64,000 bases of DNA. Source: a virus. How positions within the stretch are numbered: position 1 is the first letter of the stretch; each line of letters starts with the position of its first letter. The position numbers and the translations under genes are program-made. This document shows, piece by piece, positions 40,291 through 55,960 of this stretch. The stretch lies in the IMG/VR virus record IMGVR_UViG_3300022926_000006, positions 18,084 to 82,083 of that record. One strand, given 5' to 3'. The notes beneath the pieces are model-generated. The model did no database searches. It was not told where the DNA came from and was given only the letters and a program-made list of their open reading frames with translations.

Positions 40291-40509
40291 TTAGCGTTGT
40301 GAAACGAAAGAATTCATCTCATTTGCTAGTTTGCTGATATCTTCGAATGTTGGAAATGCAGGAAGTTCAGGAAAAGAAACATCTAATCCCGCTTCTCTAT
40401 CTGCAAAGTATTTCTCTTTAATATTGCTGATATCAGTGTGATATTGCTCTGTGAGCAGTTGTTTAGCACTCTCAATCATAGAGAAGCGCAAATCGAATGG
40501 ATTACTCAT
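40291..40509 (-). CDS. Conserved small hypothetical protein
   Basis: 72 aa; NPF.LR...I..AK.LL...P.FP....I...A.....FV; AGGAG RBS. Confidence 0.7.
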   Translation of the reverse strand: MSNPFDLRFSMIESAKQLLTEQYHTDISNIKEKYFADREAGLDVSFPELPAFPTFEDISKLANEMNSFVSQR

Positions 40510-40539
40510 ACTATTTCTCCTTGTGTGTATGTGTGTAAA

Positions 40540-40909
40540 ATGTAGGGTGAAGCAATTGCTTCTTCTGTTTCCAGGCGTCCCTACGACACCCAGAAGATTA
40601 TGCCGCTAGGCGAATATCTTCATATGCAATGTTATCGTTTGCATTTACTTTGTTTTGACTTATTAGGCGGTCATCCCACAGTTCTACTCTTTCCTGTTTA
40701 CGTCAGTCGATCCTATTTCGCCCCCATCATAATTACTCGATTTACCAACACCAGATAGATATCTTATTGGTGTCTTTTCTTGTATCTTAAACAGTTTTAT
40801 AAAAAACTCTGTTAGTCTATCAAACATATTGTCCTCAAGTAATTATGGTGGAGGCGGTGGGTATCGCACCCACGTCCTGCCCGTCATTCAGATTGTATCA
40901 ACAAACTGT
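40540..40909 (-). ncRNA. ssrA: Circularly permuted (two-piece) tmRNA; tag ANDNIAYEDIRLAA
   Basis: Acceptor piece ends ...GGGTGCGATACCCACCGCCTCCACCA at 40846; coding piece begins GGGGGCGAAATAGGATCGAC at 40725; tag ORF 40642-40598; outer ends approximate. Confidence 0.93.
40684..40827 (-). CDS. Putative 47-aa ORF starting in the tmRNA intervening segment
   Basis: GAGGA RBS + ATG; MFDRLTEFFIKLFKIQEKTPIRYLSGVGKSSNYDGGEIGSTDVNRKE*. Confidence 0.45.
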   Translation of the reverse strand: MFDRLTEFFIKLFKIQEKTPIRYLSGVGKSSNYDGGEIGSTDVNRKE

Positions 40910-40915
40910 ACATTA

Positions 40916-40944
40916 TATATAACATGCTTTGATGTAAATGTCAA
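40916..40944 (-). promoter_or_regulatory. Sigma70-type promoter of the tmRNA
   Basis: TTGACA-17-TATATA(TAAT). Confidence 0.65.
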
Positions 40945-55058: not shown

Positions 55059-55145
55059 GCGCCCGTGGCGGAATAGGTAGACGCAACGGACTTAAAATCC
55101 GTTATCGATTACGGTGTGTGGGTTCGAGTCCCTCCGGGCGCACCA
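55059..55145 (+). tRNA. tRNA-Leu(TAA)
   Basis: GCGCCCG/CGGGCGC acceptor stem, ACGGA-ctTAAaa-TCCGT, long variable arm, GTTCGAG, encoded CCA. Confidence 0.95.
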
Positions 55146-55170
55146 AATATATATTACAAGGAGATGATAA

Positions 55171-55386
55171 ATGTTACACAAGATATCTGATTTATGTGAT
55201 AGGATTGATGCCATAAAGTTTCAAGCAGATAGGTTGCGAGAAGCAAAATATGGTCCAGACAAAAAAAGCGCCGCAGAAATACAAGCACTCATTGATGATA
55301 TTCAATCAATGTGTTATACTGTTGCAAATGACAAATCGAAATACCAGAAGGTGTCTTACTTAGAGGGTGGACAGTTTCAAGAGTAA
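55171..55386 (+). CDS. Hypothetical protein
   Basis: 71 aa; AGGAG RBS; between tRNAs. Confidence 0.6.
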   Translation: MLHKISDLCDRIDAIKFQADRLREAKYGPDKKSAAEIQALIDDIQSMCYTVANDKSKYQKVSYLEGGQFQE

Positions 55387-55392
55387 AAGTAT

Positions 55393-55469
55393 CTGCCCGT
55401 AGTTCAGTTGGATAGAACAACGGATTTCTAATCCGTAGGCCGTGGGTTCGAATCCTACCGGGCAGGCCA
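55393..55469 (+). tRNA. tRNA-Arg(TCT)
   Basis: CTGCCCG/CGGGCAG, ACGGA-ttTCTaa-TCCGT, GTTCGAATC, CCA. Confidence 0.95.
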
Positions 55470-55473
55470 ATTT

Positions 55474-55547
55474 AGGGGAATGGTGTACTGGTATCACGGT
55501 AGTCTCCAAAACTACAGAATGAGGTTCGATTCCTTGTTCCCCTGCCA
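55474..55547 (+). tRNA. tRNA-Trp(CCA)
   Basis: AGGGGAA/TTCCCCT, GTAGT-ctCCAaa-ACTAC, GTTCGATTC, CCA. Confidence 0.93.
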
Positions 55548-55565
55548 AATAGATGAGGACGTAAC

Positions 55566-55883
55566 ATGAGTAATGCATACGGAAAAACAAGGTTCGATTT
55601 AGAACATGCGTTGAATGATATTCGCACAACGGCAACAGACATTCAGACTGTTGCGGATATGATGTACGACAGTACTCTTATCTACAATGAAGACCGAACC
55701 CATACTGTTCTTAGTGGTCTAGCAGAAGTGTTAGAAGCAAAGTGTGAGAAAGCAGATATGATATTCAAAATGCTTTTTGAACTAGATGAATACAATCATC
55801 AGTATTACAAAGATGCTGACGGAACTTTGCGTTGGCGAGATACAGAGCAACCATTAGAGTCCCAACTGTGGGATAAAGTTTAA
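55566..55883 (+). CDS. Hypothetical protein
   Basis: 105 aa; GAGGA RBS. Confidence 0.6.
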   Translation: MSNAYGKTRFDLEHALNDIRTTATDIQTVADMMYDSTLIYNEDRTHTVLSGLAEVLEAKCEKADMIFKMLFELDEYNHQYYKDADGTLRWRDTEQPLESQLWDKV

Positions 55884-55960
55884 CGGAGATTAGCGCAGTC
55901 TGGTAGCGCATCTGCTTTGGGAGCAGAGGGTCGTTGGTTCGAATCCAGCATCTCCGACCA
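55884..55960 (+). tRNA. tRNA-Pro(TGG)
   Basis: CGGAGAT/ATCTCCG, TCTGC-ttTGGga-GCAGA, GTTCGAATC, CCA. Confidence 0.95.

What the first reader, a model, noticed from the sequence alone, without database searches (positions are those of the whole stretch)
40684..40848. ORF hidden in the intervening segment of a permuted tmRNA: a built-in non-stop mRNA?
Seen: the 120-nt intervening segment between the acceptor CCA (40846) and the coding-piece 5' end (40725) is closed by an approximately 13-bp stem (CAUAAUUACUUGA/UCGAGUAAUUAUG) that extends the acceptor stem. It contains GAGGA + ATG (40827), opening MFDRLTEFFIKLFKIQEKTPIRYLSGVGKSSNYD. This is exactly 34 codons up to the predicted RNase P cut. In the unprocessed RNA the frame continues into the tmRNA to a stop (47 aa). 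The N-terminus looks like an amphipathic helix. Known: intervening segments of alphaproteobacterial two-piece tmRNAs are excised and regarded as non-coding. Inference: after excision the piece would be a stop-less mRNA, and so a substrate for the tmRNA that released it. Alternatively, translation of the precursor could compete with tmRNA maturation. Either would be a self-contained feedback or sensor device for trans-translation.
Basis: partly seen in the sequence, partly recalled or inferred. Interest (0 to 1): 0.8.

Follow-up and report, generated by a model that had tools for sequence, protein, structure and literature searches.

The report
Stop-less peptide gene inside phage tmRNA
A marine phage's two-piece ribosome-rescue RNA (tmRNA) gene carries, in the spacer that is cut out during maturation, a real, conserved gene for a 34-residue peptide that has no stop codon of its own, so one transcript has to serve both as messenger and as tmRNA precursor.

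Summary
A permuted tmRNA lies on the minus strand. Its 120-nt spacer (40845-40726) is closed by a 13-bp stem. It holds GAGGA, then ATG, then 34 codons that end exactly at the predicted RNase P site. The frame runs on to a UAG 39 nt inside the tmRNA, giving 47 aa.

The ORF is a real gene:
- 18 distinct 34-codon homologues keep the ribosome-binding site, the start and the frame.
- Indels fall only in the spacer between ribosome-binding site and ATG.
- dN/dS is 0.37, against 0.67 and 1.45 in the other two frames.
- The family has 72 protein clusters and includes cultured phage Melnitz. It sits inside, or directly beside, phage tmRNA genes.

The stop-less layout is kept throughout this subfamily. 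Sister subfamilies end at a stop inside the stem.

The "built-in non-stop mRNA / sensor" reading is therefore possible but not shown. I favour a nested gene translated from the precursor, with run-off ribosomes as a tolerated side-effect.

I found no paper describing this. This scan has noted coding tmRNA spacers before on other DNA.

The parts
40912..40944 (-). Promoter-like site in front of the tmRNA gene: TTGACA (40944-40939), a 17-nt spacer, then TATATA (40921-40916). TATAAT lies at 40917-40912.
   Evidence: Read directly. The consensus scan did NOT list it, because its rule needs T at position 6 of the -10 hexamer. The RF01849 model aligns its own 5' leader here. This part is inference only.
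40846..40907 (-). Acceptor piece of the permuted tmRNA: T-arm and the 3' strand of the acceptor stem, CGCCUCC-ACCA, with CCA at 40848-40846.
   Evidence: Rfam RF04321 alignment; ARAGORN.
40726..40845 (-). Intervening segment (IVS), 120 nt, predicted to be removed during maturation.
   Evidence: The same 120-nt layout is found in related viral contigs.
40835..40847 (-). 5' arm of the closing stem (CAUAAUUACUUGA). It includes the last two letters of CCA.
   Evidence: Fold and RNAalifold on 13 relatives. Across 110 IVSs the closing helix has a median contiguous run of 11 bp, against 4 for mismatched arms.
40832..40836 (-). Shine-Dalgarno GAGGA. Its first two letters are paired in the stem; the rest is free.
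   Evidence: All 13 aligned relatives keep GAGGA, GGGGA, GGAGA or GGGAG.
40726..40827 (-). The 34 codons of the peptide gene that lie inside the IVS (MFDRLTEFFIKLFKIQEKTPIRYLSGVGKSSNYD). The last codon ends at the predicted RNase P site.
   Evidence: NG86 dN/dS is 0.37 in frame, against 0.67 and 1.45 out of frame. Family alignment A1.
40684..40725 (-). Read-through tail: 13 codons (GGEIGSTDVNRKE) plus TAG, encoded by the 5' end of the mature coding piece.
   Evidence: In relatives the tail's stop lies at +30, +33 or +39.
40728..40740 (-). 3' arm of the closing stem (UCGAGUAAUUAUG). It also encodes ...SSNY of the peptide.
40554..40725 (-). Coding piece of the tmRNA. It starts with GGGGGCG, the 5' strand of the acceptor stem with a G3-U pair. 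The tag frame GCA...GCA is at 40642-40601 and its TAA at 40600-40598.

Best explanation
The spacer of this marine T4-like phage's two-piece tmRNA gene holds a genuine small-protein gene.

The product: about 34 residues, with an N-terminal helix followed by a conserved (K/R)-Y-L-(S/G)-G motif. It belongs to a phage family found only inside, or directly next to, phage tmRNA genes.

Shown:
- the anatomy;
- conservation of the ribosome-binding site, start and frame;
- a purifying-selection signal;
- the family's tie to tmRNA genes.

Inferred:
- The gene is transcribed as part of the pre-tmRNA and translated from it.
- Because the ORF has no stop of its own, ribosomes read across the RNase P site and 13 codons into the tmRNA 5' end. 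That melts the closing stem and the acceptor stem.
- On any one molecule, translation and maturation therefore exclude each other: messenger first, tmRNA precursor afterwards.
- Ribosomes still on the spacer when RNase P cuts would run off a stop-less end and be rescued by trans-translation.

I read this run-off as a tolerated side-effect of packing a gene into the spacer in this reading frame. I do not read it as the purpose of the arrangement. The biochemical role of the peptide is unknown. Its constant linkage to tmRNA genes suggests a role connected with trans-translation or with early host take-over.
For: Anatomy.

Homologues:
- 18 distinct 34-codon ORFs keep Shine-Dalgarno, start (ATG, or GTG in 2) and frame. 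IVS lengths of 120-123 nt differ only in the spacer between Shine-Dalgarno and ATG. One relative (115 nt) has a 6-nt in-frame deletion.
- dN/dS is 0.37 in frame, against 0.67 and 1.45 out of frame. Variable columns by codon position are 16/12/22.
- RNAalifold finds no conserved structure inside the loop beyond the closing stem. The covariation term is -0.86, and 1 of 30 pairs is compensatory.

General pattern in viral contigs (ORF covering at least 70% of the IVS):
- 105-135 nt: 42 of 46 unique IVSs, against 5.9 (max 11) in 100 shuffles.
- 136-600 nt: 28 of 31, against 1.9 (max 5).
- 40-104 nt: 6 of 33, against 10.3, so no enrichment.

Family:
- 72 protein clusters at E<=0.01. Of these, 53 carry residues translated from the flanking tmRNA pieces.
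- A profile search of 1.94 Mb of fetched loci gives 61 hits inside IVSs, 1 directly upstream of a tmRNA gene and 0 elsewhere.
- Relatives carrying only the C-terminal motif lie directly downstream of two other tmRNA genes.
- Cultured phage Melnitz has a member in the same stop-less frame.

Cellular genomes: with the same 20-nt search word, 101 of 103 alphaproteobacterial IVSs are 71 nt or shorter. In viral contigs 41 of 115 are 105 nt or longer.

RNA libraries: contigs from two RNA-library runs of two studies bridge acceptor piece, IVS and coding piece.
Against: - There is no direct evidence of translation or of RNA ends. The RNA-library contigs cannot separate precursor RNA from contaminating DNA.
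- The selection signal is moderate, and it comes from closely related, non-independent sequences.
- Frame-breaking variants exist. One contig (run X3, depth about 4) has a 1-nt insertion in the ORF. One relative of a sister subfamily (L223) is frameshifted.
- The stop-less layout is kept in every member of this large subfamily. All 25 tmRNAs entered in this frame stop within 39 nt, against 79 of 115 others that stop within 45 nt. A designed arrangement would look the same.
- No Pfam, PHROG or Atlas relative gives any hint of function.
Confidence: 0.55

Rival explanations
1. Built-in non-stop messenger. RNase P cutting at G1 is meant to turn the spacer ORF into a stop-less message. The 34-residue peptide is then tagged by tmRNA and destroyed while trans-translation works, and accumulates only when rescue capacity is exhausted. 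Alternatively, it primes or feeds back on the newly made tmRNA.
For: - No in-frame stop lies before the predicted cut, and the last codon ends exactly at it.
- The layout is conserved in 18 of 18 distinct ORFs of the subfamily and in 45 of 72 protein clusters of the family.
- It recurs in phage Melnitz on a different stem and in an unrelated peptide family, where 7 of 7 stop at +10 inside the tmRNA.
- Precedent: arfA mRNA is cut by RNase III in a hairpin inside its ORF. The truncated product is SsrA-tagged unless rescue is saturated (PMC3989581, passages).
Against: - Sister subfamilies with the same stem end at a TAA inside the 3' arm: 13 of 34 family-B IVSs.
- Free-standing relatives have ordinary stops.
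- There are at least 11 switches between stop and non-stop on the tmRNA tree.
- Of the three frames through the conserved ...UAUGAU|GGGGGCGAAAUAGG junction, only one meets a stop before the cut, so stop-less layouts are expected by packing alone.
- There is no similarity to ArfA: Pfam finds nothing at E<=1, and hhalign gives probability 0.23%.
Confidence: 0.2
2. Regulatory leader. What matters is the act of translating the spacer, which melts the closing and acceptor stems and so times or throttles tmRNA maturation according to ribosome availability. The peptide itself would be dispensable.
For: - In most ORF-bearing IVSs the ribosome-binding site abuts or overlaps the 5' arm, and the ORF end overlaps the 3' arm.
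- In the window G15 and A16 of GAGGA are paired in the stem.
- The read-through covers the 5' strand of the acceptor stem.
Against: - Amino-acid-level conservation: Y-L is invariant across subfamilies that share no nucleotide-level constraint, and dN/dS is below 1.
- The same peptide family also occurs outside the spacer, beside tmRNA genes.
- About half of the related tmRNA genes do without any ORF: 72 of 149 rows.
Confidence: 0.12
3. Not a gene. The frame is open by chance, or the conservation reflects RNA structure of the spacer.
For: - For the window alone, an ORF of this length arises in 222 of 5000 shuffles.
- The peptide is tiny and has no known relatives.
Against: - With a Shine-Dalgarno requirement, only 3 of 5000 shuffles match.
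- Indels respect the frame, variation is richest at third positions, and there is no covarying internal structure.
- ORFs are strongly enriched in long viral IVSs.
- The protein family has 72 clusters.
Confidence: 0.05

Closest known systems
Circularly permuted (two-piece) tmRNA genes of Alphaproteobacteria (Rfam RF01849, RF04321) and the SsrA of OM43 phage Melnitz (PMC9004378)
   Same: Same gene order: acceptor piece, CCA, spacer, coding piece. It also shares the acceptor stem with a G3-U pair, the ANDN...LAA tag and above-threshold Rfam scores. Melnitz's annotated SsrA is 76% identical over the parts that align.
   Different: In cellular genomes the spacer is a short non-coding hairpin: 101 of 103 are 71 nt or shorter. 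Here it is 120 nt and holds a conserved ORF. In the passages I read, the Melnitz paper does not mention an ORF in the spacer, and the word 'intervening' occurs 0 times. Its GenBank record annotates none.
arfA mRNA of E. coli: RNase III cut in a hairpin inside the ORF gives a non-stop mRNA whose product is controlled by trans-translation (PMC3989581, passages)
   Same: The ORF runs through a stem that contains, or abuts, an endonuclease site, and cutting would leave a stop-less message. The truncated product resembles the natural short form in sister subfamilies.
   Different: The nuclease here would be RNase P acting on a tRNA-like domain. The message is part of the tmRNA precursor itself. There is no sequence relationship to ArfA. 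Cleavage, tagging and regulation are all untested, and the stop-less state is not conserved across the family.
tmRNA genes interrupted by group I introns that carry homing-endonuclease ORFs (PMC11915505, passages: 36 of 883 intron forms)
   Same: A protein gene sits in a part of a tmRNA gene that is absent from the mature RNA.
   Different: In those genes a self-splicing intron in the T-loop carries a mobility gene. Here the processing spacer of a permuted gene carries small, non-endonuclease peptides of many families (17 clusters). That paper reports only a tRNA gene and a repetitive element inside permuted-gene spacers.
Dual-function RNAs that are both regulator or stable RNA and messenger (e.g. 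SgrS/SgrT, RNAIII/hld; recalled, not checked in any call)
   Same: One transcript has both a coding and a non-coding job.
   Different: Here the two functions lie on separate segments that are cut apart, and the ORF overlaps the mature RNA by 13 codons.

Membership tests
Permuted two-piece tmRNA (RF04321 / RF01849) | Covariance-model score above the curated gathering score | tested here: met
   108.3 bits against 47, and 104 bits against 50.
Permuted two-piece tmRNA (RF04321 / RF01849) | T-arm and 3' acceptor strand with CCA lie upstream of the 5' acceptor strand; 7-bp acceptor stem with a G3-U pair | tested here: met
   CGCCUCC-ACCA at 40856-40846 pairs with GGGGGCG at 40725-40719.
Permuted two-piece tmRNA (RF04321 / RF01849) | Tag reading frame with its own stop and a C-terminal ...LAA | tested here: met
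   ANDNIAYEDIRLAA*.
Permuted two-piece tmRNA (RF04321 / RF01849) | Precursor is cut into two pieces in vivo and the spacer is removed | not testable with these tools
   Only assembled contigs of RNA libraries were available, and they cannot show RNA ends.
Protein-coding gene | Ribosome-binding site and start codon conserved at working distance | tested here: met
   GAGGA lies 5 nt before ATG. 13 of 13 aligned relatives keep a GGAG-like motif and ATG or GTG.
Protein-coding gene | Frame kept among homologues (indels outside the ORF or in multiples of 3) | tested here: met
   18 distinct ORFs all have 34 codons, although the IVS ranges from 120 to 123 nt. There is one 6-nt in-frame deletion. Exceptions: L223 is frameshifted, and one RNA-library contig carries +1 nt.
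Protein-coding gene | Excess of synonymous over non-synonymous change, specific to this frame | tested here: met
   pN/pS is 0.37 in frame, against 0.67 and 1.45 in the other frames. The sequences are related, so no significance is claimed.
Protein-coding gene | Product detected | not testable with these tools
   No proteomic or ribosome-profiling data were reachable.
ArfA-type built-in non-stop messenger | ORF lacks an in-frame stop upstream of an endonuclease site at a stem | tested here: met
   The frame is open from 40827 to the predicted RNase P site at 40726/40725. The first stop is at 40686-40684. The cut site is predicted from the tRNA-like fold, not mapped.
ArfA-type built-in non-stop messenger | Stop-less layout conserved among homologues | tested here: inconclusive
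   It holds in 18 of 18 ORFs of this subfamily and 21 of 34 family-B IVSs. It also holds in 45 of 72 protein clusters, a count biased because very short ORFs are rarely called as genes. Sister subfamilies have a stop.
ArfA-type built-in non-stop messenger | Truncated product is tmRNA-tagged and its level depends on rescue capacity | not testable with these tools
   This needs experiments.
ArfA protein family (Pfam ArfA) | Sequence or profile similarity to ArfA | tested here: not met
   No Pfam family at E<=1 for 8 family members. hhalign of alignment A2 against E. coli K-12 ArfA gives probability 0.23% and E 0.26.

The most novel reading that the evidence does not exclude
The stop-less frame is functional. 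RNase P cleavage at G1 leaves the peptide ORF as a stop-less 3' trailer still attached to the tmRNA acceptor piece. The ribosome stalled at its end would then be the first client of trans-translation on every new molecule.

Two outcomes are possible:
(a) The peptide level reports rescue capacity. It is tagged and degraded while rescue works and stable when rescue is saturated, as with arfA.
(b) Trans-translation brings in the 3' exonuclease that trims the trailer back to CCA, which would couple tmRNA maturation to working rescue.
Probability: 0.15. Interest if true: 0.85.

Novelty: new variant of a known kind. Interest (0 to 1): 0.62.

Why it matters
Spacers of permuted tmRNA genes are treated as disposable, non-coding RNA. 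In the database paper and the Melnitz paper I could read, no ORF in them is mentioned.

Here the spacer is a messenger for a selected peptide, and that peptide family travels with phage tmRNA genes. If confirmed:
- The pre-tmRNA would be a bifunctional transcript on which translation and RNase P processing must take turns.
- It would add hidden small proteins to marine phage genomes.
- In the stop-less subfamilies it would give a natural system in which tmRNA maturation itself makes a non-stop message.

Phage Melnitz on its OM43 host carries the same arrangement, so the question can be tested in culture.

Tried and rejected
Function by homology:
- PHROGs gave nothing for the 47-aa ORF.
- Pfam at E<=1 gave nothing for 8 family members.
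- The ESM Atlas gave no usable hit.
- The ArfA idea was tested and rejected.
- The AlphaFold2 model is only a helix of moderate confidence. I did not run fold searches, because a single short helix would match anything.

tRNA inside another spacer: the L091 spacer looked tRNA-like by eye. ARAGORN and Rfam call no tRNA there, so I dropped it.

RNA evidence:
- 16 RNA-library runs hold part of the stretch, but only assembled contigs could be laid.
- Stretches without cover mean nothing. Examples are run X2 over 40734-40795, and the X2 contig that stops at 40722, 3 nt short of G1.
- An early frame-0 stop in all 25 tmRNAs entered in that frame is only a weak hint, because most of them are one clade.

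SmpB: none is found in the 82-kb record, but the record is about 47% complete.

Promoter: the promoter-like site that I read by eye was not called by the scan.

Papers:
- Keiler 2000 and Sharkady & Williams 2004 are not held. What I say about processing in Caulobacter is recalled.
Table S1 of PMC9004378 (phage tmRNA list) and Supplementary File S1 of PMC11915505 might bear on whether coding spacers were noticed.
- The claim that the arrangement is not in print rests on searches, and on passages read only.

Family counts are therefore not a census.
Full report
1. THE OBSERVATION

The window is part of an 82-kb IMG/VR virus record estimated 47% complete. Genes around the site are T4-like:
- an exonuclease;
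- two 2OG-Fe(II) oxygenases;
- an endolysin-like protein;
- a gp33-like late-transcription coactivator.

ARAGORN finds one permuted tmRNA on the minus strand, at 40507-40940, with tag ANDNIAYEDIRLAA. Rfam scores it well above threshold for RF04321 (108.3 bits) and RF01849 (104 bits).

Reading one search gives these positions:
- The acceptor strand CGCCUCC-ACCA ends at 40846.
- The 5' strand GGGGGCG starts at 40725.
- The 120 nt between them (40845-40726) are the intervening segment (IVS).
- GAGGA is at 40836-40832, and ATG at 40827 opens 34 codons that end exactly at 40726.
- The frame continues for 13 codons into the tmRNA to TAG at 40686-40684. This is the 47-aa ORF.

The 13-bp closing stem appears in both the MFE and the centroid fold. 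The z-score is -2.77, and 1 of 200 shuffles folds as well.

2. IS THE ORF MORE THAN CHANCE?

For the window alone, 222 of 5000 shuffles of the loop give an ORF as long. Only 3 of 5000 do so with a Shine-Dalgarno motif. The stronger evidence is comparative.

Of 234 records, counting the window, 179 have a recognisable acceptor end, IVS and 5' strand. That makes 143 distinct IVSs.

The share of unique IVSs holding an ORF over at least 70% of their length depends strongly on IVS length:

| IVS length | With such an ORF | In dinucleotide shuffles |
|---|---|---|
| 40-104 nt | 6 of 33 | 10.3 |
| 105-135 nt | 42 of 46 | 5.9 (max 11) |
| 136-600 nt | 28 of 31 | 1.9 (max 5) |

The short IVSs are GC-richer hairpins and show no ORF enrichment.

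The 70 ORF-bearing IVSs of 105 nt or more fall into 17 peptide clusters. Another 7 IVSs of that size have no large ORF.

The closing stem is a general feature. Among 110 IVSs of 50 nt or more, the median contiguous helix is 11 bp, against 4 when arms of different loci are combined. There are 56 different 5'-arm 10-mers, so compensatory change is extensive.

3. THE WINDOW'S OWN FAMILY

There are 18 distinct 34-codon ORFs of the window's type. The IVS lengths are 120, 121, 122 and 123 nt, and they differ only between the Shine-Dalgarno motif and the ATG, so the ORF stays at 34 codons. One 115-nt relative has a 6-nt in-frame deletion. Two use GTG as start.

Nei-Gojobori pN/pS over codons 2-28 is 0.37 in frame, against 0.67 and 1.45 in the two other frames. 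Variable columns by codon position are 16/12/22. The sequences are related, so I claim no P-value.

RNAalifold on 13 of them predicts nothing conserved inside the loop apart from the closing stem.

The peptide aligns with shorter and longer relatives from other spacers. Y-L is invariant, and the consensus is MF....WF.K....KEK..VKYLSG.

A profile search of the 5.8-billion-protein collection returns 72 clusters at E<=0.01, none with a Pfam domain. Their ends sort as follows:

| Feature of the cluster sequence | Clusters |
|---|---|
| Ends in residues translated from the tmRNA 5' end (..DGGE[IL]GST..) | 45 |
| Only an N-terminal extension translated from the acceptor piece | 8 |
| Neither | 19 |

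Most of the 19 are identical in type to spacer ORFs that I located myself.

In 1.94 Mb of fetched loci the family profile hits 61 spacer ORFs, one ORF directly upstream of a tmRNA gene (L077) and nothing elsewhere. tblastn also finds ORFs carrying the family's C-terminal ..KYEDLC(K/M) motif directly downstream of two further tmRNA genes that have short spacers (L046, L080).

Cultured OM43 phage Melnitz has a member in its 142-nt spacer (MFKWL...KIPKYLSGTRSVYD|GGELGST...). It lies in the same stop-less frame although the stem sequence differs. Its GenBank record annotates only 'SsrA' there.

The ORF is therefore a real gene of a phage family tied to tmRNA genes.

4. PHAGE VERSUS CELL

With the same 20-nt word, 103 alphaproteobacterial genome loci give IVSs of 3-71 nt in 101 cases. 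The other two are GC-rich outliers of 116 and 174 nt. Among 115 viral IVSs found with that word, 41 are 105 nt or longer. Coding spacers look like a viral speciality.

5. THE STOP-LESS LAYOUT

The junction ...UAUGAU|GGGGGCGAAAUAGG offers three frames:
- One meets UGA at -4, or a stop further back in the 3' arm.
- One meets UAG at +10.
- One, the window's frame, is open to about +39.

All three are used:
- In the window's subfamily every member is stop-less, with the stop at +30, +33 or +39.
- Two sister subfamilies on the same stem end at a TAA inside the 3' arm (...KYLGK*, ...KYEDLCK*).
- Overall 21 of 34 family-B IVSs read past the cut and 13 do not.
- An unrelated Cys-containing family stops at +10 in 7 of 7 members, and a membrane-peptide family at -4 in 10 of 10.

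On a tree of the tmRNA backbone (149 rows, 205 nt, quick search), the stop/non-stop label changes at least 11 times among 77 ORF-bearing rows. Shuffled labels give a mean of 25.9 and a minimum of 17. The state is heritable but switches often.

All 25 tmRNA 5' parts entered in the window's frame have a stop within 39 nt. Among the other 115, 79 have one within 45 nt. That could mean the read-through is kept short, but most of the 25 are one clade.

One protein cluster (P0065) even reads in frame through to the tag's own stop.

6. MECHANISM

Shown: the anatomy, the coding status and the family's linkage to tmRNA genes.

Inferred:
- The ORF lies on the pre-tmRNA.
- A ribosome starting at 40827 must unwind the 3' arm of the closing stem and the 5' strand of the acceptor stem before it terminates at 40686.
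- RNase P can therefore act only on a ribosome-free junction.
- After the cut, any ribosome still upstream reaches a 3' end with no stop. That is the classical substrate of tmRNA-SmpB.

Whether this run-off is the point of the arrangement (as in arfA; PMC3989581) or a side-effect cannot be decided here. I favour the side-effect for three reasons:
- The peptide is under selection.
- Sister forms with the same core have normal stops.
- Relatives outside the spacer are ordinary genes.

The sensor reading keeps about 0.2 and a pure leader-peptide reading about 0.1.

RNA evidence is thin. 16 RNA-library runs hold part of the stretch. In two runs of two studies a contig bridges acceptor piece, spacer and coding piece (X1 518 nt, X3 360 nt). 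Contigs cannot tell RNA from DNA or show ends. The X3 contig also carries a 1-nt insertion that would break the frame.

7. WHAT THE PEPTIDE DOES

Unknown.
- AlphaFold2 with the family alignment gives a helix at residues 3-18 and a disordered rest, with pLDDT 66.5.
- Amphipathicity is modest.
- There is no PHROG, Pfam or Atlas relative.
- An ArfA relationship was tested and not supported.
- No SmpB gene lies in the 82-kb fragment.

8. KNOWN OR NEW

- The 2025 tmRNA database paper (PMC11915505, passages) reports a tRNA gene and a repetitive element inside permuted-gene spacers, and endonuclease ORFs in intron-form genes. It reports no spacer ORFs.
- The Melnitz paper (PMC9004378, passages) describes the two-piece ssrA and a glutamine riboswitch, but no spacer ORF.
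- Hudson et al. 2014 (PMC4131195, passages) lists only mycobacteriophage and Bacillus phage G tmRNAs.
- Six full-text searches found nothing on coding spacers.
- Supplements were closed, and two founding papers are not held.
- Earlier AI notes of this scan describe the same phenomenon on other DNA many times, including this peptide family. I treated them as leads and re-derived what I report.

VERDICT
- Observation confirmed.
- Interpretation partly supported.
- A new variant of a known kind: a permuted tmRNA gene whose spacer is a messenger. The stop-less design remains an open hypothesis that can be tested in culture.

Noticed in passing
L001:1902-1950 and about L001:1973-2071 (phage Melnitz): The glutamine riboswitch (RF01739, 52.8 bits) sits directly after the Melnitz tmRNA. 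It is followed on the same strand by an unannotated ORF of about 32 codons with a GGGGAG motif in front (MTLYQQWCYLKAQKEY...). The record annotates only a minus-strand hypothetical gene there. Locus tags _87 and _88 are missing between the tmRNA (_86) and _89.
   Followed up: partly
L077:5098-5259; L046:2720-2770; L080:2995-3045: Free-standing relatives of the spacer peptide family end in ...HR.H..KYEDLC(K/M)*. They lie directly upstream (L077) or downstream (L046, L080) of tmRNA genes whose own spacers are short and non-coding.
   Followed up: partly
L016 (IVS of 499 nt, minus strand, about 1982-2668): One viral tmRNA spacer holds two ORFs in a row. The first is a 34-aa member of the window's family with its own stop. 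The second is a 120-aa ORF with hydrophobic stretches.
   Followed up: no
protein cluster P0065: A spacer ORF of the same family reads in frame through the whole tmRNA 5' part into the tag reading frame. It ends at the tag's own stop (...NANDNFAPQDYALAA), so the precursor-encoded product would carry the degradation tag in cis.
   Followed up: no
window 40732-40843, run X1 (tables 5 and 5c): One RNA-library contig matches both tmRNA pieces but replaces the 110 nt of the spacer with 30 other letters. This is a co-occurring relative with a short hairpin spacer, which suggests that spacers are exchanged as cassettes on similar tmRNA backbones.
   Followed up: no
window 40291-40509 (-): A 72-aa ORF with a strong AAGGAG ribosome-binding site starts about 45 nt after the end of the Rfam tmRNA match. 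It has no PHROG family.
   Followed up: no
window 55059-55960 (+): A cluster of four tRNA genes: Leu-TAA, Arg-TCT, Trp-CCA and Pro-TGG.
   Followed up: no
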